Assembly (NCBI GenBank): GCA_963575745.1
Contig: CAUYUJ010000312.1
Span: forward strand, 1 to 64,000
Direction: 5' to 3'
DNA: 64,000 bases
DNA from: Prorocentrum cordatum
Taxonomy: Eukaryota
This document shows, one piece after another, positions 1,534 through 58,569 of the stretch (the first letter of the stretch is position 1; each line of letters begins with the position of its first letter). Below the pieces are notes generated by a model. The model worked only from the letters and a program-made list of their open reading frames with translations, made no database searches and was not told the DNA's origin. The translations under genes were made by a program, and so were the position numbers.

Positions 1534-4500
1534 GTCGCCTTTCCTTCGCCTTGTCTCCCGTTTTGGAGGGGGCTGCTCGCAGGGATCCGCCTGTGATGGG
1601 AGAGGAATATCCAAAGGCAGAACAATCCCGTTTTTCTGTTTTCTGCCCTCGGTTTTTTCTGCCTTCCGTTTCCGGGAGGGGGGGCCTCCCGTCTTGGAGG
1701 GGGCTGCTCGCAGGGACTCGCCTGTAATGGGGGGGAGCTCCATCCTTGCCCCTTCGTGGCCGTCTCGTTCGTTTTGCTCCCCCGTCCTGCACGCCGGCCA
1801 GTTCGCGCATCGGTTGCCCCGGAGTGCTGCTCGCTGGTGCAGTTCTGCCTCGCCGCCGACGAGAAATGGTGATGGGGGGGGGGCTTCAGGGCCCACTTTG
1901 ATCCGATCGATCTGATTCGGCAGCCCTTTTGGCCAGATCGATCCGATCCGATCGGATTCCGAATTCCCAGCGATCCGATGCGGCCCGATGCTTACAGGGC
2001 GCTGCTGTGCAATTTGGTGCAGCCGATCCGATTCGATTTCGACTCTGTGCCGATGCAGCCCGGTCCGACGCACATCCCGATCCGATCCGCTTTTCCGATT
2101 TGATGCCGACCGATCCTGGGCTTGAGACTCGTGGGCGAAAAACGCCTCCTCCCCCTCCTCGTCCTCGTCCTCGTCCACGTCCTCGTCCTCGTCCTCGTCC
2201 TCCTCCTCCTCCTCCTCCTCCTCCTCCTCCTCCTCCTCCTCCTCCTGTGTGCTAATGTCTTAAGTCATCCAATTCGCTGCAACCGAAGACGCCAGTGTGC
2301 GATTCTTACTGGCGCCGGTGTTCGGTGCTTCAGTTTCCGCACCACGTGCACACTGTAATGCGAGCTGGCCTTTACCCATGGGGGGACCCCTACCAGAGCG
2401 CACAGCTGCCAAATTTGCCCTGTTCGACCCCTCACCCACAGGCATCAGGAGAGTGGTCGCAGCGTTTCATATCCACAGGATTGCTCGCGTTTGCCCCAGG
2501 CTTCCGCCTACCCCAACGCCTCCAGGAAATCTTTGAAGCGGCGCGGGCCGCCGTCGAACTCCCCCTTGGGGGGGTACCTCCAAGAAGCTCGATTTGCGGG
2601 CTCGGCTTTAAACGCCTGTAAGTCCATCAGGCACGCATCGTTCATGTGGTCGACAGTTGCCCGGGCAACATTTGTCACAGGTGGCCCCCGTCATCGAAAA
2701 TTGTAAGACTGTGTCGTACAAGCTTGAGTGAAACTTTCTACACCACCTGTACTTTAATACTTTCCTTACAGGTCTTCGCCCTCGGTCCCTGTCCATGGCG
2801 TACCTTTTCCTGCACATCCACTTCGGCACCGCCTGTTCCCCGGGCCCCGCCCGCTCCGGCCGCCTGAGGCCCCGCCTTCTGTGCCCTGTCTCCCTAATTA
2901 AAGCTGTGCGTAGCCCGCTTAGCTTTTAGCGGAAGAGGTTCGCTCTCGCCCCGCAGATCAAAAAAGCATCTTAATACTTTCGATCGGCACGATGAAGTTG
3001 CTCATCAGCACGACGTGTGGGGTACGTCTCTCCCAGATTCGGTCGCTGCTCACCCTTGCGATTTTTCGTGTGCTCTCGCCCCTGGGTGGCTGGTCAGGAT
3101 GCTCGGCTTTTAGGCTCGGCTGGTGGCGTCCGTGGCAATCGGGTCACGGCCTCTTCAGAAAAGGGCCCCAGCGCAACCCAGTCGGAGCCCACAGACACAG
3201 GAACACCTCATGTAACGCTTGGTCCTCCTCCTCCTCCTCCTCCTCCCTGCCTCTCATCCTCATCCTCCTTTTCCTCCTCCCCTTCGCCCTCCTCTCGCAG
3301 TCCCCGAGGAGAGAGACGGCGAAACGGGGGACGAGGAGGTGGAGGTGGGCGAGAAGGCAGGAGGGAATCCGTGTTCGCGGCCTCGCGGGCTGGGCACCTG
3401 GGCTGCGACCTGCGGGGCGTCTGTCTCGGATGCCCCGCGCGGAGCGCGTCTTCGTGCGGCCGCGCTGCCGCGGGACGTCGCTCCGGAGTCCGGACCGCGA
3501 GTGCGCGGCTGCGGACAGGTTCGCCGCTCGAGAGGCGGGCGGCAGTAAAACGGCGCGAAGATCGGGACAAAATTGGACCGGGATAACTCGAAATCTCTGA
3601 GAATCGGCGGGTTTGGAGGATGTATTGGGCGCCGCGGCCGCTCCAGAGCGTTCCGGAGCGCTCTCAGAGCGCTCCGGAACGCTCTGGAGCGATTTATCCC
3701 GATCCTAGCCTTGTTTTAGGCAGGGCGTGCTGAAGTGCTGCTGATGCACCCTGTGCTTAGTCTGGTCCTCCATCCCTTCTCCTGGTGGACGGTTCCTCCT
3801 TCGCGCGCCCCTGGGCGTCTCGGTAGGGCTGGCAGGGCGTCTCGAGTGAGATTTCCCCACGCTCGTCATTTGCAACAATCACGCGGATGGAGGGTCCGCT
3901 TTCAAGATTGAAGATTGGGTTGTCGCTTTAGCGCCGCGACCATTCGTCCGAGAACGTTGCAACACTTACACTGGTGGAGAGGCGGGGTGTTTTCAGGGGA
4001 TCTCGTCCTGGCTCCGTGGGGCTGGAGCGGATGGGGTCGGAGCATCGCGTCGCATCGCCGACGTGTCGGCGATGCAGCGTGATTTGGAGTTCGATCTTAT
4101 CCGTCCCGACGCTGCTGGTGCAGCACTAATTCGGCGCGAGCCTCTGGGACCCCATCTGCTCCAGCCCCTATACCACGAGGCCTCCACACTCGCGAAAGCC
4201 GACCACCAAGGGAGGGAGCCAGGGGAGGGGCAGATCCTTCCCTCACCGTTGCGCGGGAGGTGGGCCGGCGAGCGTGTTGCCCTCCCCAGGGCTTCCGATC
4301 TTTCCCTCGTCCCCCTATCGTCGCATCGTGCCACCATCGTTTCGGGGGTGGACAGAACCCCCAACCTGACACGTCGATTCGCGAATTGTCCGTTTTCGGT
4401 TCTCGAGAGGGCGCCGCGGCCGTCATTTTCCAGGCTTGCGCCCGCCAGGTTTGGGCCCGAGGTCGTTTTCACTGAACCACGTTGTGCTAAAGGGGGTTCT

Positions 4501-24422: not shown

Positions 24423-24911
24423 CGAGGCGGGGGGAGGAGGAGGAATGGGCGGGCGGAGGACGAGGCCGGAGTGGCCTTCGGTGCGGGCCCACTGGGCCCC
24501 TCCCCGGTCGCTCAGCGCCATGCGACGTTGGCTGCTTGCGCGCTTAGATTTGGCTACCTTGCGCCCCCTTCGTCCGCGCACCAACGGCCGCAGCGTGCAG
24601 CCGAAGAGGGGAGTGACCCTTGGCCCGGTTGACCTTGAGTGCGGGCTCATCGGGGTCCCTTCGATTGCTGAGCGCGATGCGACACCAGCTGACTGCGCGA
24701 TTGGGTTTGGCCACCGTGCGCCCCCCTTCTTCCGTGCACCAGAGGTCACTCTTGCTTAGGGTCACTCCTTGCGTGTAGCCGATGTTCGACGGTCCCAAGG
24801 CCCAGTAATAGGCCCCCAGAGGCCCGAAGCAGCGAAAGACTTCCCGTCGTGTTTTTTGTCCTTGGTCACAGGGGGGTCTTGGACGTGGGGTGGGCCTGAA
24901 GCTGCCGAGAG

Positions 24912-25036
24912 GTGATGCCGCTGGAGCTCCCCGCCAGGGGGCTCCGCATGGGCGAGGAGGTGCCCTACGCCTCGTCGCTGGCGGAGCTCGCGCGCGGGGT
25001 CCTCGACGGCGTCGGCCTCGCCGTGTTCGCCGCCAG
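24912..25036 (+). CDS. Thioesterase exon 2 (VMPLELPARGLRMGEEVPYASSLAELARGVLDGVGLAVFAA-R)
   Basis: AG|G acceptor, AG|GC donor, phase 0 to 2. Matches the TEII V..V.LPGRG.R..E motif and joins exon 1 in frame. Confidence 0.9.
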
Positions 25037-25911
25037 GCCTCGCCACGAAGGGAAGGGGCTCAACGAGGAGGGAAAAATAGAAGCAGCAAAGTATGCTGCA
25101 GGCTTGGCACCTGGAGTCCGCCCAGCCCCAACAAAAACGAGGGTGAAAACAGGTGCCCAGGGACCCCAGGTGATCGTTTTTTAATTCATTGTTTTGCCGA
25201 GCGGCGCGGGCCCCCTCCCCCCCCTCCCCTCCCCCATGGAGCAGATCTTGGCTGTCTGGTGCGCCTGTCTCGAGCAGGTGGAGTCCCCCCCCCTCATAGG
25301 ACCCCGTGCTGCAACACAGTCGAACTAAGCAGAGGTCCGGAGCCAGACCCCCCCCCCCTGTAAGGGTGACTTTTAAGACTATGTGACGTGATGTGTCTTC
25401 GGTGCATGCGTAGATTAGCGTTGTGTTTTTCATACACGTGTTGATGTAGTTGTATATGTAGATGCTGATGCAGACGTTGACGATGATGCTGGTGTAGCTG
25501 TTGTCCTCTCGGTTTCCCCATTGTCTCTTGTCCTCTTGGTTTCCCCATTGTCTATTGTCCTCTTCGTTTCCCCATTGTCTCTTGTCCTCTTGGTTCCCCC
25601 ATGTCTTGTGGACTCTTGGTTCCCTATTGTCTCTTTTCCTCTTGGTTCCCCTAATTGTCTGCTGACTGAGTGGGCGGGAGATCCTCCCAGGAGTGCGATT
25701 GCCGAAACCTATTAAAAAACAATGGAAACGCGTCTTGGAGCCGCGAAACCTGTCAAGGCCTGGGGCCTGCTAGAACAATCGCGCGCGCGAAGCGCGCGCG
25801 ATGGTTCTAGCACATATATATATAGATGTATATCGCCCAGAAAACGCCTGTAGGGGGACATGCCCGACCTAAGCCTCGCGGTGCGAGGAGAGGTCCGGGC
25901 CGCCCGCCCAG

Positions 25912-45524: not shown

Positions 45525-47593
45525 GTGTCCGCCCCAGCCGGGCCGCGGGGCCGCCTTCCTCCCTGTTCCCCTCCTCGTCCTCCCCCCTCGCCTTCCCTCC
45601 TCCTCCTCCCTCTTCCTCCCTCTCCTGTTCCTCCCTCCTCATCCTCTCTTCTACTGCTCACTCCTTTTCTTCTTCTCTCTCCTCTCCATTATCCTCCTTC
45701 TCGCCCTCCTCCTCGTCCTCGTCGTCGTCCTCCTCCTCCTTCGGCTTCTCTTCGGTGCCGCCCGATGGGGGCAATTCCCTGCGGTGTTTGCCGCTGCGGG
45801 CCCGAATGGGTTTCTTCCCACTGTGAGGGTGGTGGCGCGGAGTCTTCGGGATAGGGCGTTTGACGCCTCGCAGGATCTTCGAAGTTGGGACCAAGTGAGT
45901 CTGCTTGTCGCCCCGCAGCACGTTTTTTCCGACAGGCCTCCGCGTTTCGCGGGTCGTAGGACGCAAATCTTTCTCCTCAGTGAAGCTGGAGGGCGCGACC
46001 TGTTTTCACACGCGAGGTTGAGCAATGTGCACTGCAACCTCGTGCCAGCGCGCACGTAAAATATGAACTTCATGCTCACGTCCTCCTCCACTCAGATTTA
46101 TCTCTTTCCCACCTTGCCAAAGCTTCGGGCTGCGTGCAGATAGTCCTACCAGATACCAGCTAGTTCCCGCTGGCCTCAACAGGCCCCCGGAGTAGTCCAG
46201 GGCGTTCTCGACACCCCAACCCTGGGCGAAGCGCCCCAGGGGCGCCGCCGGAGGCGGTTCCAGGGTCGTGTGATCCTCAGTCTTACCATGTCCTCTACCT
46301 CTTCCTTCCACTAGGATGTAATTCCTCTGATGTTGAATTCTGAGTCGGCGCTGGTACATCCCATGGTCGACGGCTTACCTAATGCGGCTACGTCCCAGTT
46401 AATGTGGCTTGATCCCGCTAAATCCGGCTTAATCATCCAGCTTCATCTCGGGTTTAATCTGACTTAATCCTGCTCATTGGCCCTAGAGTCTTGCTGAATA
46501 GCATTCGCTCGTTCTGACGAAGACCTCATTCTCCCAATGTTTTCCTGGTTTTCCCAGGCGGGGCTAGGACGAGGATGAATCCGTTCCAGAACGTTCCGGA
46601 ACGTTCTCAGAGCGTCCCAGAACGTTCTGAGAAGCCTGCGACGCCCGACGTTTTCCAGAGCCGCCAGATCTCAGAGATTCTCGATCTATCCTCACCCGAA
46701 TTCATCCTCGTCATGGCTTCGTCGTAGGCTCAGGGGGGACGCATCGACCCCCAAGGACAGAGGGGGGATATCGTGGCGTCCGGCTCCCATCAGCCCACAA
46801 GGTGCGTGAGCGAAAGAGATGTGAGCGAACGCGTGCCCAGCATTGTGACCGAGAAGGCAGTGTGACCGGAGCAGAGAGCACGAGACGAAGCCGGTGGCTT
46901 CGTCTCCTGTTCTCTGCGCCTACACCGCCTCGCCTTCCCCTCCCTTCCCTCGCCTGTCCGTCGGCGCGCTGCCCGCGCCCGCCCGGGCGGCCTGCTGCCG
47001 CAGCGCTCCTCCGGGGTCGCCTGCCCGATCGAGCTCTCCTTCCGGAGGCTGATAGGCCTCCGACCCTGACGCGTCGATGAGCGAAGTGGCCGTTCTCGGT
47101 TCGCGGGGGGGGGCGTCGCGGCCGCCGCCGTTTTCTCGGGTCCAGGTCCGTCGGTTTCGGCCCCGGGCTGTTTTCACTGAAGGGAGGTTTACCAGAGGGA
47201 GGTTAGTGCACCGCCGATTCTTCCCATCATCCGGGAGACGTGGAGCTCCTCCCCCCTCCTCGCCTTCCCGCCCTTCTCCCCCTGAGATGCGGGCGTTACC
47301 ACTTCTTCACACCGGGTGTGTTTTCGCCCGGTTCCTGGACCCAGGGCCACCGTCGAAAAGTGCCACGGAAGGGTGGGGTCTGGAGCTCTGGTCGTGACTT
47401 TTTCTGATGTTGCAGTTCTTTCACAAGGCCGGATTTCACAGGACCCTCGGACCTCACGCATCTTGGCCACGAAGTCGAGGCGGACCTAGCCGTTGCGATG
47501 ACTGTCCCCCCCCCCCCCCCCTCTCGTGAAGGCCCAAATCCAGGCCTTCCGACTCGGGCACATTGGGTCGGAGGAGCGCGCCACCAGAAGCAT

Positions 47594-47659
47594 TCCGTAG
47601 CCATTATGGCTCAAGCCATTTGACTCAAGCCATTCGGGCCGAATCCATCCTGGCTTAAT
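47594..47659 (+). other. Genomic dinoflagellate spliced leader (DinoSL) plus three tandem relic SLs
   Basis: 47594-47615 TCCGTAGCCATTATGGCTCAAG has 1 mismatch to DCCGTAGCCATTTTGGCTCAAG. It is followed by CCATTTGACTCAAG, CCATTCGGGCCGAAT and CCATCCTGGCTTAAT, decayed copies of the 15-nt relic unit CCATTTTGGCTCAAG. The stack ends ~30 nt before an ATG. Confidence 0.93.
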
Positions 47660-47688
47660 CAGCGCTTACGTCCTGCCGTGCTGCACCG

Positions 47689-49147
47689 ATGATGCGCTGC
47701 CAGGGGCTTGCCGCAGGCTGCATCGGCACATACGTTGCCATGGATTTCCAGAGGTGGAGGGCGCATGAGAGGCGAAGAGGGCGGCGCGACGAGATACAGC
47801 AGGCTCTGTGGTACAGGAAGGCAGAGCTCTTGGAGCATGGGGCCCAACAGTATACACCACCACCATTTTCATCATGCCCTCCCTCCTCCAGGAAAGAGGA
47901 GAGGAGGATGAGGGTGGAGGAGGGAGGAGGAATCGACGCGGTGGTGGTGTATATTCTCCTCCAGGAAAGGGGAGAGGAAGAGGAGGGTGGAGGAGGGAGG
48001 AGGAATCGACGTGGTGGTGGTGTAGATTCTTGGGGCCCGCGGGAAGCACTGGCACGACTTCAAGACAGAGATGCAGCGGCAGGGGGCGATGCAGCTCGCC
48101 ACCGACTCCACGAAGCTGGTGCTGAGCGTGATTCCGGGTGCCGCGGTGCTGGGGGAGACCGCGGACACCGTGAATGATGCGGCCAACCTGCACGATCTGT
48201 ACGAACTGGTGAGCGAGATGAAGGATGTTTCCGTTCTGCACTGTGACGAAGAAGCAGGGCTCATGGATGTTCTGGCGAGGAACGATTCTGGAAGGCGGGC
48301 AATCCAGAGCAAGTTGGAAATTGCGCAGTTGGAGAAGGAGCTGTCGATACTGTCATCCGACTTCTGGTCTGGGCACCCACACTTGGAGTCAGGGTGGATA
48401 TGGCACAAACCGTTGACGTATTGCAGACCTTTGTTCAGATTAATACAGCCTTTCATGACCGAGGTGTCTGGCATTTGCAGCGCTGCTCCGCAGGAGTCTG
48501 ATAGATATGCAAAGGTTTTCGCTCTCGTGGACAAGGACTCAGACGGTTCAATCAACAAGGCTGAATTCAAGAGAGCGTTGTTAGCGTTGGATTCTATAGA
48601 TGGAGAGTGGAGAGATTTGCTTCAAGGAGATCTTACATCATTTTTTCTTTGGGCTGATGCAGATGGCGACGGCAAGATTGAAGCGAACGATTTTATCCTT
48701 TGGGTCCAAACCACAAGAGCGCTCATAGCATGTTTCAAAGCGATGGACCGTAATGGTGATGGATTGATCGATGCGGCTGAATTCAAGGAAGCCGTGCACA
48801 GGTTGTCTGGAAGCTTGCAACAGATCAGAGCTATCGGTGCCGAGTCGGGACAACGTAACCACTCTGAGGTGGAGGCAGAGTTCAACGACATCGATCGGAA
48901 CAAGGACGGCCGAATCAGTCTTCCAGAATTCGTTGGGTGGATGCACAAGTCCTCTCCAGAGAACGGCCTTCGCGCCGTCCTGATGCGTGTCGTCAATATG
49001 AGTATGGCCCACACCGTGAGCTTTCAAAGTGTAGGATCCCAGGGTCTGCAAGGCCTGAAGGGTCAGATCGGCTATTTGAGCGAGGCAAGCGTGGCAGGTG
49101 TGCAAGACGCGAAGCGGCGTGTCAGCAGTTTTTTTTTCCCGTCTTGA
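47689..49147 (+). CDS. Intronless EF-hand Ca2+-binding protein retrogene (four EF-hands); 421 aa after removing a 193-nt insertion, uninterrupted part 48071-49147 (358 aa); possibly a pseudogene
   Basis: Four canonical loops: DKDSDGSINKAE, DADGDGKIEAND, DRNGDGLIDAAE, DRNKDGRISLPE. No introns, preceded by SL relics. Frames of ORFs 47689 and 48071 join (…LLEHGA-RGKHWHDFKTE-MQRQG…) when the insertion is excised. Confidence 0.88.
47846..48030. mobile_element. MITE-like TIR element inside the EF-hand ORF
   Basis: Flanked by direct repeat TGGGGCCC (47838-47845 and 48031-48038). Termini (CC)AACAGTATACACCACCACC and GGTGGTGGTGTAGATTCT(TGG) are inverted repeats. Internal ~75-bp tandem duplication. The TSD/TIR boundary is ambiguous (3, 5 or 7 bp). 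Confidence 0.85.
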
Positions 49148-49769
49148 AGATAGGACGCCACGTCCGTCCTCCTGTAAACTTTGGGATCTGCAGTACCCAT
49201 CGACGGGCCAGAGAGGCCGTCATCATCTTGGCCCCCTGTCGGCTCAGGCTCTGCCAGGGTTGATGCCTTCGGAGCCGCATGGGGGCCTTTCTGTTGAGGC
49301 GTCTGGAGATGTCTTGAGAAGGTCCTGGCTCTGCTTTTTCAACCCTCGCTGCTTTCCCTAGCTCTTGCGTTCTGGATGCGGATGTTTCGTCCTCGAACCT
49401 GTTGTGTTCTTCCTTTCTGTGTGGTGGCTTCCGCATTTCGACCTCTTCGGCCATACTCGAGGACGCCGGCGGCGCATCACCGGCCGCTCCCTGGGAGTTT
49501 GCCGAAGTGGTGCGCAGCATCGAAAGTCGTGACGCGGCGCGTATGCCAGCTATCAAATGGCCGTCGCCCCATCCCGCGACCGTGCTTGGGTTTTGGGTCG
49601 AGTCCTCATGGACGCTTCTTGGGGTCTCTCGAGAGGGCTCTCGGGGGCCTCTGCGGGGAGTTTAGTGGCCTCTTGGGGGCCTCCTGGGGGCTTCTTGGGA
49701 GCCTCTTGGGGCCCTCTTCGGGGCTCTTGGGGGCCTCTTGGGGCCTCTTGGGAGCCTCCTGGGGGCCTC

Positions 49770-50275
49770 GTGCGAAGTGCGTCCCAATGGGTGCGTGCGA
49801 AGCACATCCCAAAGGGTGCGCGTACTACACGTGTCCCAGCGGGTGCGTGCCGGAGCACGTCCCGCAGGGTGCGCATGTACTATACTGTACGTGTCCCAAT
49901 GGGTGCGTGCGAAGCACGGCCCAAGGGGTGCGCGTACTACGCGTGTCCCAGTGGGTGCGTGCAGGAGCACGTCCCAGAGGGTGCGCGTGTACTATACCGT
50001 GCGTGTCCCAGTGGGTGCGTGCGCAGCACGACCCAAAGGGTGCGCGTACTACACGTGTCTCAGTGGGTGCCAGGCGGAGCACGTCCCAGAGGGTGCGCGT
50101 GTACTATACAGTGCATGTCCAAAGCACGTCCCAAAAGGTGCGCGTACTACACGTGTCCCAGTGGCTGCGTGCCGGAGCACGTCCCAGAGGGTGCGCGTGT
50201 ACTAAACCGTACGTGTCCCCATGGGTGCGTGCAAAACACGACCCAAAGGGTGCGCGGTTTACACGTGTCCCAGTG
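49770..50275. repeat. ~52/59-bp tandem repeat (GTGTCCCAGTGGGTGCGTGC…GCACGTCCCAGAGGGTGCGCGT)
   Basis: About nine imperfect units directly visible. Confidence 0.85.
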
Positions 50276-52284
50276 GCTCCCATCAGGAGGGGTCCCCGCT
50301 CGAGATTGCCTCGTGTGTCACTCACAGACGAGGCCCCAGCTGGAGACTTCTAGCATCTTCAGGCCTCAGGAGCCCAAAAGTGACGACGTTTACAGAATTC
50401 GCATGGCCGCGCTCGGATTACCAAGCGCGTGCCCCATGGGGAAGGGGCTCCCGCCTGAGATTTCCTCGCAATTCACTCACAGGCGAGGCTCCCACCTTAG
50501 AATTCCTCCAAATGCAGGCCTGAGGAACCCAAGTTGAGGATGACCCGCTCGGATTGCCAACATGAAGTGTGGGACCCATAGGGAGGGGGCTACCGCCTGA
50601 GACTTTCTCACAATTCACTCACAAACGAGGCTGCTGCCTGATACTTCCTCCATATTGAGGCTTCAGGAGCCCAGAAGTGACGACAGTTACAGGGTTGACG
50701 ATGATCGCTCGGACTACCAACATGAAGTGCGGGACCCAAAGGGGGGTCAGCCAGAGCGCCCGATCTTGCAGGATCCTGCAAGAACAGAGTCGCATTGACC
50801 CAGGTTTGGGTGCAGGATCCTGCAGGATCTTGCAGGATCCTTCGCATTGCACCCAGATTTGGGTGCAGGATCTTACAGGATCTTGCAGGATTCTGCAAGG
50901 CCTGGCTGACCCAGTGTTGGATTGACCTGGGTCAGACGATCCCCGAACATGATTGTATTTGGTTGTTGCATGTTATGGGCGCGCTCCGCGTTCGTATCGA
51001 CTGCGTTAGCCACTGCAGGTGATGCGCACCACGTACGTTTCACAGCTTTGCTGCCCCGGTCTTCCCCCTCGTCCTCTGGGTGCCCGTCGCACTCTGTCTC
51101 CCCTCGCGTGCTCTCAGTCTGATCCACATTGACAGTGGTAGCGGTGTTTCAATCGCTACGGCTGCGCACGTGTACGACGTCAGTCGGATGATCGCGTTGT
51201 CTGCCTTCGCCTCGTGCTGCTTGCTGAAAACACGCTTTCGGCGCTGCGCGGCGCTCGAGGAAACGGGGGGGAGGTCGCCTCGTCAATCTCGGCCCCCCTT
51301 ATTGGCCGCCCCCCCAGAGCAGCTGTGCTCACGTGCTCTGTTAGGCTGAGCACTGGGGAGTCATCGTCGCCTTCAGTGCTCCACCCTTGGCGGTGCCTGC
51401 GATCCAGGTTTCCCCTCGACGATTCGGTGGCCGGGGTTCAAGGGCGAGCCACGGATCTAGGTCTCGATTCAAGTCTTTCGCCTCTTTTCCTGTGCCCCCC
51501 CCCCATCCGCAGCCCATGGTAGTTTGCGCGTGCTCGCGCAATTCCCTCTCCCCTTCCCCAGGTGCCCGCGGCGAGCCCAGCCGCCGTAGAAGCGCAGCAC
51601 TCTGGCTGGCGAGGCTTTGAGCACCGCAGGCCTTCCCGCGTGGCACCTCTCGCGCCCGCTTGTTGAGGAGCTCTGGTGAAGCTGGTTTGCTGGGCCGTCT
51701 TGTGGCTGCCTCGTGCCCCCGCCGGACAGTCTTGGGGTCCCTTGGGGCCCTCTTGGGTCATCTTTGGGCCCCTCGGCTCTCGTGGGCCGTCTTGGAGTTG
51801 TCTTGGCCGTCTTGGAGCCCTCTTGCCAGACAGCACATGGCATTCGACCACGCCTTGACGTACCACGGGGGCACGGGGGCGGACACATGGGGGGGACGTC
51901 TACCAGCCACGTCGCCGATCCTGGCCAGGCCGATCCTGAGCCCAGCATCGGTGCATTCGCATCCCCACAGCCAGGTCCGGAGGGCGTGGACACGGAGTCG
52001 GGGATCGCCAGGATCGGTGAAGTGGAGGAGGAGGAGGAGGAGGAGGAGGAGGAGGAGGAAGAGGAGGAGGAGGAGGAGGAGGAGGAGGAGGAGGAGGAGG
52101 AGGAGGAGGAGGGAGGGAGGGGGAGGGGGGAGGGGAGGGGGAGGGGGAGGGGGAGGGGGGAGGGGGAGAGTTGACGTCCCCAGGGCAAGCCTTTGAAAGC
52201 GGGAAGCGCTTCCCGATGTGGTAGCCTCGGGTTTCGCGTCTCCTCGGGGGGGGGCGCCGGGCTGCGCCGGCTCTTGCAGCCAAG

Positions 52285-55660: not shown

Positions 55661-57780
55661 CTCCTGGACTGTAGACTCTGGTGGCATCGGAGGCCCCGAG
55701 AGAGCTGCCATCCCCGCCCAGCTGTTGTTGCCGCCGGGGGGGAAGGGGTGGGATCAAACTAGTTACCTATAGCGTAAATAGCGGAAAAGAAACCCGGCGG
55801 ACAGAGGCAAAACTCTCCCGGGGGCGGTGCAGTTGGGCCCCTCCAAAGAAGGAGGTCGTCGTCGCCGTCGCCCTCCTCCTCCTCCTCCTCCTCCTCCTCC
55901 TCCTCCTCTCTTCCTCCTCCTCCTCCTCCTCCTCCTCTTCCTCTTCCTTCTCCTCCTCCTCCTCTTCCTCCCCCTCCTCCTTCTCCTCCTCCTCTTCCTG
56001 CTCCTCCTTCTCTTTCTCCTCCTCCTCCTTCACCCCACCACCTCCTCCTTTTTCTCCTCCTCCTCCTGCTCCTCGCGACACGTCGCGACCATGTTTGTAC
56101 AGTGTCCGTGGTCGTTCTTGTACGGCGTGCGTCTGGAAGCAGTCTGTCATGGCGGAGTGTCTGGCACTTCTACTTGACATAGAGAAGGCCTCCGAGAACG
56201 TGATGTCTTACATTTTGGCTCCAGGGGCTCTCGAGTTGGGCTTCCATCCTGTTCTTGTACGATTTTTGGTCGAGCTGTATCTTGGCCCGCGCTTCGTTTC
56301 CGATCAGGTCATTCCTGGAGGGGGCGCGCGGGCGACCCGCACCATCGTGGCGGGGCGTGCATTCGCAGACCTCCTGATGAGAGCAACGCTACTACGTGGC
56401 ACGGACCAGCAGGTAGAGAAGTGTTCCGTTATTCTTACTGCGGTTTAGTAGCCGATGATCCTTATTGTTTGCTTGTTGGAACTACTAAGTTTCTTCTTGA
56501 ACAGGCGCTAGGTGTCGCGTCGTCACTCCTGACCGCGTTGTCGGTGTTTGCTCAGCTGCCAGTTTCTGTGTAAGTCTGACACGTCTACGCAAGGCTGGGG
56601 CTTGCGTGGGGCGTCTTGTCCGTTCTGATATCCAGCCGGTTGCTTTTTCTGGGTCTGGAGTTAAGGTATGCATTTTCAGCAAATCCGGTCTGCTTATCGT
56701 GTCTCTATGTGTTCACGTTCTCATCGTTGTGTTACCATGGCCGTAACTATTGAACAGATCGTACATCCTGCGGTTCCTGCTCGTACTGATGTTGTTATTA
56801 CTTATCATGCTTCTTATGGGATTCCCTGGTGCCTCAGCACCTCGTGGACGAGGCTTTTCAACGGGCCATTGACAATATTGGTATAGCCACCTGCTGGGAC
56901 AGCCTTCGTGGCCCGGCGTCGTCTAATGTGGCTACACTCTTGCATCTTGGCTGGAGCTTCCAATCCACCACTCTCTGGCTTGCACATTGGTATTTCTGTC
57001 GTTTCCCCCCGCGTTGTCGAGAATATGGTGGCGTTGGACGCGGACGTATGGGGATGGCAGCAAACTGCCCGTCACCACCCCGCGCTGTCCCACCTCTCCG
57101 GTCCATTTCATTTACCACCACTTCGTACTATCGGCATGTCTGCGCCTGCGTGGGGGAGGCCTCAAGGTGTGGCACTCAGATCCGTCATCGGGGCCGTGCG
57201 TTTGGTTATCCCCTGTTCTTTGTGCGGGGCTACCCATGCTGATGACATTTCTGCTATGCGTCACCTTCTTTGGGATTGTGGTGGCACGCAGGCTGCTCGA
57301 CAAGGTTACGGTTTGCCAGCTCACGTGGAACATGTTCGAGCTCTCCTTCCTGATGATCCGCTCTGGTACCCCGCTTTGGTCCCTGATCCAGAGCGGTTGT
57401 ACTTCCAGCTATGGAGTTGGACATTTTGTGGTTCTTTTTCGGTGACCCGCAGGGTTTGCCTCTACTTGCGTCTCCTGTCTTTGGCGACGGTTCAGGTCTC
57501 TATGGCCCTTCACCGAGAGCATTGCGCTGCGGCTTCTCTGCGGTTGCTGTGGGGCCATCCGGCGGTGCGCGCGTCTCCGCCCACTGTGCTCACCCTGGTG
57601 CTTATTAGTGTCTGCCTTGTGCGGAAGCTTTGTCGTTGCTGGTCTTCCTGCTGCATGCGTTGCCAGATTCAAGCGGCATGTTTTGTACGTGTCTATTACA
57701 GCGACGGCCAGAGGGTGGTGGAATCTTGGCACGCCCCATCTTCTCATCTTGTCTCCGGTTGGAGCCCCCACTCGGGCATA

Positions 57781-58190
57781 CAGTCAACCGTGATGGTAAG
57801 GACGGAGCAGCTTTCCAAGGCCACCCTTGCATCCCTGCCCCTTCGGTATTCGGCATCCTTCGGCATCCTGCTGCGCTCCGCACGGAAAACGTTAACATGG
57901 CGTTCCAAGGTCCTTGCGTCCTTACCGCGCATCCTCACTTCGGACACTGGAACATGTACATTATCAGTGGCGGGCTGTTTTGCACTCCCAGGACTTCTTG
58001 AGGATCGGGGACGACGCTGGGGTGGTGTGTTGTATATTTGTTTCCCCGATGTCCCGGGGAAACAACGAAACATGTATACACCAGGGTCTTGTATACACCA
58101 GGATCCGCTCTCCAGGGCAAATTTCAATGCAGGGCCGGAAAAAGCGTCGGTGTATAGATATCGGCTCCCTATTGCTATCTTGGTCGAGTG
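57781..58190. mobile_element. 410-bp Tc1/mariner-type MITE inserted in the RNase H region of the LINE
   Basis: Imperfect ~27-bp TIRs (CAGTCAACCGTGATGGTAAG… vs reverse complement CACTCGACCAAGATAGCAAT…), flanked TA / TC. Removal restores PHSGI-WARINAKSADIGCDGVRVRKAKAH. Confidence 0.75.
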
Positions 58191-58569
58191 TCTGGGCTCG
58201 CATTAATGCGAAATCTGCCGACATCGGTTGCGATGGCGTTCGAGTTCGCAAGGCGAAGGCCCACCTCGCCGTGTCACTCCTTTGTCCAGGCCGCCTGGCC
58301 AACGACAGGGAGCGACCACGCAGGACGAAAACCCAAGAAACATGGGAAACTATTGGGAATCCTGTTATTTGTATCTATTCATTTGTGTGTCCCAGGGCCC
58401 CTTCATCATCACGTTGATGCAGCTGCTGTGGAACGTGTGAGCAGGTCGAGTATTGTAGTGGAGCGCGCAGGCAGACACATGGACTTTATAAGGTCTCGTG
58501 TTTTTTTTTGTCCGCGCCTCGACGAGGTTCCTCGCCCTCCCTGGGCCGTTGGCCCTCCTTTGTCTGCAC

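What the first reader, a model, noticed from the sequence alone, without database searches (positions are those of the whole stretch)
47594..47659. Four stacked spliced-leader copies: a record of repeated mRNA-to-genome recycling
Seen: one full 22-nt DinoSL (1 mismatch) directly followed by three 14-15-nt relics; the two 3' relics are much more diverged. Established: dinoflagellate mRNAs are trans-spliced to DinoSL, and a retroposed SL is re-spliced at its internal AG, leaving CCATTTTGGCTCAAG relics. Inference: this gene lineage has been expressed, reverse-transcribed and reinserted about four times, and the present copy is the latest, still 5'-complete insertion.
Basis: partly seen in the sequence, partly recalled or inferred. 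Interest (0 to 1): 0.82.

Follow-up and report, generated by a model that had tools for sequence, protein, structure and literature searches.

The report
Repeatedly recycled dinoflagellate EF-hand retrogene
A calcium-binding-type gene of a dinoflagellate carries four stacked, decaying copies of the leader that these cells splice onto their mRNAs, the well-known footprint of genes copied back from RNA several times; the odder feature is a hairpin insert in the gene that its transcripts lack although it has no normal splice signals.

Summary
The array is real: a full 22-nt DinoSL with one change (47594-47615), then three in-register relics with 2, 5 and 4 changes. Chance for units 3 and 4 together is about 1e-7. 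It heads a 415-aa EF-hand gene. One assembled contig, inferred to be RNA, matches 1677 nt with no difference, keeps the genomic leader's private change, and stops matching at the AG at 47599-47600, as re-trans-splicing there predicts. This is the published mRNA-recycling footprint: leader plus four relics is reported in 1 of 238 Alexandrium ESTs, up to eight relics in Symbiodinium, and 4 of 117 metagenome loci fetched here have three or more. Four rounds is the likeliest count; three plus a duplication is not excluded. No parent, target-site duplication or poly(A) was found, and no DNA read spanned the junction. All 4 runs laid skip it exactly, yet no cut position gives GT/GC/GA..AG. It argues against cDNA contamination and is the more unusual feature, though earlier scan notes report similar cases. 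Verdict: known kind, low interest.

The parts
47594..47615 (+). Unit 1: full-length genomic DinoSL, one change (T>A at 47606); 5' end of the last retroposed mRNA
   Evidence: consensus
47599..47600 (+). Internal AG of unit 1, the likely trans-splice acceptor in use today
   Evidence: Inferred; the letters are not shown
47616..47629 (+). Unit 2: 14-nt relic, one deletion and one substitution
   Evidence: present in contigs of X1 (whole), X5 and X11 (from 47619)
47630..47644 (+). Unit 3: 15-nt relic, 5 changes, terminal AG lost
47645..47659 (+). Unit 4: 15-nt relic, 4 changes, terminal AG lost; run X11 has the canonical C at 47656 (and a non-canonical A at 47655)
   Evidence: table 3
47660..47688 (+). 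29-nt remainder of the 5' UTR
47689..47835 (+). Coding exon 1 (the 3' border can lie anywhere from 47833 to 47837)
   Evidence: exon 1 + exon 2 translate to exactly P0002, an MMETSP protein
47836..48046 (+). 211-nt insert absent from the assembled transcripts; 4-nt direct repeat at its borders; five possible cuts AG..GA, GC..AA, CA..AG, AT..GC, TG..CA; drawn here in the CA..AG phase
   Evidence: table 5 (4 of 4 runs)
47839..47865 (+). Left arm of the insert's 27-nt inverted repeat (23 of 27 complementary)
   Evidence: (I3); fold z = -3.7
48012..48038 (-). Right arm of the inverted repeat; other contigs share about 47990-48040 at roughly 90% and then diverge, so this end belongs to a repeat family
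   Evidence: tables 7 and 8
47883..48028 (+). Two tandem 73-nt units inside the insert, 93% alike
   Evidence: (D8)
48047..49147 (+). Coding exon 2 with four EF-hand loops (about 48530-48928) and the stop codon
   Evidence: Pfam EF-hand_1 E 5.7e-26, 4 stretches
49148..49456 (+). 3' UTR region; the gene's contigs reach 49416 (X5; X11 goes on with 191 unlaid letters), 49454 (X7) and 49486 (X1); no poly(A) tract in the DNA

Best explanation
This is an expressed dinoflagellate retrogene whose lineage passed through mRNA about four times. In each round a leader-capped mRNA was reverse-transcribed and inserted; the new copy was transcribed from upstream and a fresh leader was trans-spliced at the AG inside the old one, which left a 15-nt relic. 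The newest leader is 5'-most, whole and nearly unchanged; older ones decay. Today the locus is trans-spliced again at 47599-47600, so its mRNA should carry a leader plus four relics. A MITE-like hairpin element sits in exon 1/2 and is most likely removed from the RNA as a non-canonical intron. Shown: the array, its non-randomness, the reading frame, transcripts that match the locus and lack the insert, an excess of synonymous change. Inferred: the identity of the 5 unlaid letters, the number of rounds, the reverse transcriptase, that the insert is spliced from this very copy, and that it came after the last retroposition.
For: Array and chance level. Published model and the same pattern. X1 record 1: 1677 nt, 0 differences, including the private T>A at 47606, which a trans-spliced leader RNA of consensus sequence would not carry; laid from 47599 with 5 letters left over. 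Joined exons equal P0002. Run X11 against the window: 6 synonymous and 2 non-synonymous coding changes listed, one more change not listed; dN/dS about 0.09-0.14, P 0.002-0.005. One full-length homologue, P0005, 41% identical and without a gap at the insert. Natural control: 4 of 117 distinct metagenome loci have three or more relics behind a full leader; in 15 adjacent relic pairs the 3' one is more diverged in 6, equal in 9, less in 0. The insert and the changed leader show that the window is not a mis-assembled mature cDNA.
Against: No laid run covers 47525-47592, so the junction to the upstream flank is unconfirmed; none of the 24 listed runs is on record as DNA. No parent or sister copy could be sought; the protein search of metagenome contigs found none. 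No target-site duplication or poly(A) tail. Decay is not monotonic between units 3 and 4. X1 has no library record; RNA is inferred from a depth of 238 with only 141 million contig letters and from the exact skip. X5 and X11 start at 47619 and do not inform on the splice site.
Confidence: 0.88

Rival explanations
1. Three rounds, not four: units 3 and 4 come from one old relic that was duplicated in tandem (slippage or unequal crossover) and then diverged.
For: Units 3 and 4 share two derived changes (position 6 T>C, position 15 G>T). Under independent decay this has a chance of 4-16%, depending on the mutation model. Locus L076 has two adjacent relics with the same single change, so such sharing occurs in nature.
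Against: The two units differ at 4 of 15 positions, a 4-16% coincidence is unremarkable, and arrays of this length are reported from ESTs and genomes.
Confidence: 0.2
2. The transcripts come from an identical, insert-free copy or allele elsewhere; the copy in the window was disabled by a MITE insertion and nothing is spliced here.
For: No cut position is canonical. Contigs cannot tell copies apart. X11 goes on with 191 unlaid letters after 49416, where X5 also ends, which could mean a second copy or a strain polymorphism. Without removal, the reading frame from 47689 ends at 48177.
Against: Non-canonical hairpin introns with 3-5-nt direct repeats are described in Amoebophrya.
Confidence: 0.2
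3. The insert is an ordinary GC-AG introner intron and the assembly lost one G at the donor, so the non-canonical ends are an artefact.
For: One more G after 47835 would give AG|GC...AG and exactly the observed mRNA (by inspection). GC is the commonest donor in P. cordatum, 51.4%. Introner classes recruit splice sites from 4-nt target duplications.
Against: X1 shows no other assembly error in 1677 neighbouring bases. The 4-nt direct repeat is perfect as assembled and an extra G would break it. Unchecked earlier notes report the same oddity at other loci of this genome (a lead only).
Confidence: 0.12
4. The array is an artefact: a cDNA or library chimera assembled into the genome, or chance UTR sequence.
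For: No DNA read across the 5' junction was available.
Against: The window holds 211 nt that every laid transcript lacks, the leader is changed, the sequence runs on into genomic repeats, and chance is about 1e-7.
Confidence: 0.02

Closest known systems
Relict spliced-leader arrays of dinoflagellate retrogenes ('mRNA recycling'). Jaeckisch et al. 2011, PMC3229502 (passages and section 6 read; alignment file S1 unreadable); Song et al. 2017, PMC5585692 (passages); Song et al. 2018, PMC6050394 (passages); PMC12014239 (passages; supplements unavailable). Slamovits and Keeling 2008 seen only as cited in these.
   Same: Full leader followed by abutting relics cut after nucleotide 7, decaying towards the 3' end, just upstream of a reading frame. 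One of 238 Alexandrium ESTs has a fourth truncated repeat; Symbiodinium genes carry up to eight relics (four in 7 of 8,564 and 6 of 9,339 retrogenes, mostly not abutting). EF-hand domains are named as frequent among retrogenes.
   Different: Only in degree: four abutting units lie in the tail of the distribution. The P. cordatum supplement counts 2,793 transcripts with one relic, 200 with two, 1 with three (PMC10666404, supplement passages). Here the genomic copy and a matching transcript contig are both in hand.
Non-canonical introner elements of Amoebophrya A25/A120 (Farhat et al. 2021, PMC7789003; passages read)
   Same: Short direct repeat (3-5 nt there, 4 here) over the exon borders, inverted repeats forming a hairpin, no GT-AG ends, exact absence from RNA, length near the 240-nt mean of A120.
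   Different: Host is apparently a free-living core dinoflagellate; the inverted repeat is 27 nt (8-20 there) and set back 1 and 6 nt from the direct repeats; splicing from this copy is not proven.
Introner-like elements of Polarella and Symbiodinium (Roy et al., bioRxiv 10.1101/2020.10.14.339549, parts 1-2 of 4 read) and of P. cordatum (PMC10666404, passages and supplement file 1 part 1 of 3)
   Same: Non-autonomous inverted-repeat element with a 4-nt target duplication inside coding sequence.
   Different: In the parts read, those classes form GT/GC/GA donors and AG acceptors from the element or the duplication; no cut position here gives such a pair.

Membership tests
DinoSL-relic retrogene | Genome-encoded copy of the 22-nt leader upstream of a reading frame | tested here: met
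   47594-47615, one change, ending 73 nt before the ATG at 47689
DinoSL-relic retrogene | Relics start at leader nucleotide 8 and abut each other | tested here: met
   three relics in register, joint chance about 1e-7 for units 3-4
DinoSL-relic retrogene | Conservation falls from 5' to 3' | tested here: met
   1, 2, 5, 4 changes; overall fall, last two out of order
DinoSL-relic retrogene | New leader is trans-spliced at the internal AG of the genomic leader | tested here: inconclusive
   X1 record 1 fits this exactly, but it is one contig and the 5 letters are not shown
DinoSL-relic retrogene | Parent copy with fewer units and more introns | not testable with these tools
   no genome held; none in metagenome contigs; PMC6050394 says over 90% of such retrogenes have no identified parent
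DinoSL-relic retrogene | Few or no introns | tested here: met
   one skipped segment in the whole gene against a mean of 9.8 introns per gene in P. cordatum (species assignment is inferred)
LINE-type (target-primed) processed copy | Poly(A) tail and target-site duplication | tested here: not met
   no A-rich tract until 52595; best flank matches are 5-6 nt at chance level. The tail may have been lost to the repeat at 49457
Canonical introner intron (Roy et al.) | Terminal inverted repeats and short target duplication | tested here: met
   27-nt arms, 23 of 27; perfect 4-nt direct repeat
Canonical introner intron (Roy et al.) | GT/GC/GA donor with AG acceptor | tested here: not met
   none of 5 cut positions, if the assembly is right
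Amoebophrya-type non-canonical introner | Hairpin with direct repeats, exact absence from RNA, non-canonical ends | tested here: met
Amoebophrya-type non-canonical introner | Removal from the transcript of this copy (no insert-free DNA copy) | not testable with these tools
   no DNA run among those listed; joined form in other runs not given
Amoebophrya-type non-canonical introner | Member of a repeated family | tested here: inconclusive
   other contigs share about 50 nt of the right end at about 90%; no second copy in the window or in viral contigs

The most novel reading that the evidence does not exclude
The 211-nt hairpin element entered the gene after its last retroposition, which the leader with a single change dates as recent, and is cut out of the mRNA to the base although no border pair is GT/GC/GA..AG. 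A free-living core dinoflagellate would then splice newly arrived hairpin elements without the normal signals, as described for the parasite Amoebophrya, and this short single-intron gene would be a clean test substrate with a built-in relative date. I did not find this described for Prorocentrum in searches (open-access library only; listings, not all papers read). Unchecked notes of this scan report several like cases, so it would not be the first seen here.
Probability: 0.4. Interest if true: 0.6.

Novelty: new member of a known kind. Interest (0 to 1): 0.22.

Why it matters
As a leader array it adds one long, tidy example to a process described since 2008, with a transcript that supports re-splicing at the predicted AG. 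The private change in the genomic leader makes it a convenient marker for telling genome-templated relics from trans-spliced leader. What could matter more is the insert: if it is truly spliced without canonical ends, gene models of this genome built on GT/GC/GA-AG rules will be wrong at such sites, and the question of how dinoflagellates recognise introns becomes testable on a one-intron gene.

Tried and rejected
Whole-genome search for parents: no genome held. Rfam on 46500-49500: 20 weak matches, none at gathering score. First guess that the insert is 193 nt between 8-nt repeats: wrong, transcripts skip 211 nt. Splicing from the GC phase to the AG phase would remove 212 nt and shift the frame; not what the contigs show. 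Idea that long arrays survive because old relics lose their last AG: no signal among 41 diverged ungapped relics (AG kept in 17 of 21 against 15.4 expected, 6 of 20 against 7.6; small and selected sample). Target-site duplication and poly(A): none. The gene in metagenome contigs: 40 pattern matches, none confirmed. Insert motif and leader tandem in viral contigs: 0 and 0. Earlier notes near the locus or alike in sequence: none. N-terminal 195 aa: no Pfam family, no usable Atlas hit, only generic helical folds. Other genes in the window: 25 of 263 long frames scanned, no Pfam family. Lack of cover at 47525-47592 in four contig sets is no evidence against the junction.

Full report
Observation. 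At 47594-47659 the + strand holds a full 22-nt dinoflagellate spliced leader with one change, followed without spacer by three relics of 14, 15 and 15 nt with 2, 5 and 4 changes. The consensus is the one printed in PMC5585692 and PMC12014239. Unit 1 is the only site in the window within 5 mismatches of the leader. Units 3 and 4 are weak alone, but 87 and 18 of 127,970 positions are that close to the relic, so both in exact register has a chance near 1e-7.

The gene. The long frame at 48071-49147 carries four EF-hands but is not the whole gene. A search with its first 140 residues found one cluster of four proteins. The MMETSP member P0002, 415 aa, equals the translation of 47689-47833 joined to 48045-49147. 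A search of 1.84 billion representatives gave one other full-length relative, P0005, 41% identical and without a gap at the joint; the other listed hits match the EF-hand part. The N-terminal half has no family. The organism is probably Prorocentrum cordatum: G+C of the window's 2-kb bins (0.43-0.68) suits the 59.7% of PMC10666404 and earlier scan notes name it. I did not test this.

Expression and the splice site. Of 24 runs listed, 20 hold the stretch or part of it and none is on record as DNA. I laid 4, from 4 studies; all are assembled contigs, and only X5 is on record as RNA. It therefore carries the A at 47606, which marks the genomic unit 1. Unspliced RNA or DNA would have matched on to 47594; a new leader would match only 1 of these 5 letters. 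X1 is taken as RNA from its depth of 238 with 141 million contig letters. Run X11 differs from the window at 6 synonymous and 2 non-synonymous listed sites, with one change unlisted (dN/dS 0.09-0.14; P 0.002-0.005), so the frame is under purifying selection. No contig covers the upstream flank, so the 5' junction is untested. Tables 7 and 8 were cut (9 and 84 rows not shown).

How unusual is the array? Jaeckisch et al. found among 238 full-leader ESTs 61 with one relic, 11 with a second, 5 with a third and 1 with a fourth (section 6 read), the structure this mRNA should have. Song et al. report up to eight relics, four in 7 of 8,564 and 6 of 9,339 retrogenes. The P. cordatum supplement lists 2,793, 200 and 1 transcripts with one, two and three relics. 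After dropping 2 duplicates, 9, 81, 23, 3 and 1 of 117 had 0, 1, 2, 3 and 4 relics within 5 edits, and 85 of the 92 with at least 30 nt upstream start with the complete leader. The pattern selects young copies and the loose threshold may overcount. Four units is uncommon and well within the known range.

How many rounds? The model gives four, as a minimum, since splicing at a unit's last AG erases the record (inference). Against a simple count, units 3 and 4 share two derived changes; simulations put this at 4-16% under independent decay, so three rounds plus a duplication keeps about 20%. X11 has the canonical letter at one changed position of unit 4 and a new change beside it, as expected of a freely decaying relic. 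No target-site duplication or poly(A) tail was found, so the enzyme is unknown; PMC6050394 suggests Ty1/copia. A repeat begins at about 49457 and may have overwritten the 3' end.

The insert. All 4 runs join 47833 to 48045, skipping 211 nt with 4 ambiguous letters. The segment has a perfect 4-nt direct repeat, 27-nt inverted arms (23 of 27), two internal 73-nt units, and folds better than 199 of 200 shuffles. Its right end is shared with other contigs. The five possible cuts are AG..GA, GC..AA, CA..AG, AT..GC and TG..CA; none is a GT/GC/GA..AG pair. The introner classes of Roy et al. use canonical pairs in the half of the text I read; the repeated borders of Crypthecodinium introns always contain GG (PMC5032977, passages), which these do not; Amoebophrya has non-canonical hairpin introns of this build (also the review PMC11453091, passages). 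PMC12130899 does not mention Prorocentrum in its main text. I rate real non-canonical splicing near 0.6, an insert-free twin 0.2, an assembly slip of one G 0.12. Gain after the last retroposition is likely but not shown, because retrogenes can keep parental introns. Earlier scan notes describe like inserts in this genome, one with CA..AG and one set in a retrogene; they are unchecked leads and I did not test them.

Verdict. The finding is real and correctly read, but it is a further example of a described process. Supplements that I could not read (the Alexandrium alignment, those of PMC12014239 and of the bioRxiv preprint, the P. cordatum tables) may list this gene or such introns.

Noticed in passing
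window 49457 onward: A repeat starts at about 49457: several contigs in three runs match from there, and the consensus loose ends before it finish in TTA (table 7), which recalls the 3-nt target of PIF/Harbinger elements (recalled, not tested).
   Followed up: no
window 47619 and 49416: The gene's contigs in X5 and X11 both start at 47619 and both stop matching at 49416; X11 goes on with 191 unlaid letters. Could be graph branching, a strain polymorphism, a poly(A) site or a second copy. Unexplained.
   Followed up: no
window 47595-47637: Three short contigs (X1, X11 record 8, X7 record 22) match only the leader array; the X1 one has other sequence on both sides and goes on with further relic-like text, so other multi-relic loci exist in these organisms.
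   Followed up: no
L076 (and L044, L005): L076 has a full leader plus four little-diverged relics, two adjacent ones with the same change; L044 and L005 have three relics, one preceded by an extra G. Near-identical units suggest tandem duplication of relics can inflate counts.
   Followed up: partly
L001-L119 upstream flanks: Many leader-headed insertions sit directly behind simple repeats such as (TA)n, (TCA)n, (TG)n (by eye, not counted).
   Followed up: no
window 46868-46920: 25-nt inverted repeat with a 3-nt loop (I4), inside a stretch of which 47037-47181 resembles window 4337-4476 at 70%; probably a decayed repeat.
   Followed up: no
window 49622-50906: Satellite blocks downstream of the gene: an 11-nt array, a 112-nt-period array and a 10-nt palindromic array.
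   Followed up: no
window 56887-58203 + and 24765-25769 -: Long stop-free frames of high complexity (439 and 335 aa) with no Pfam family.
   Followed up: partly
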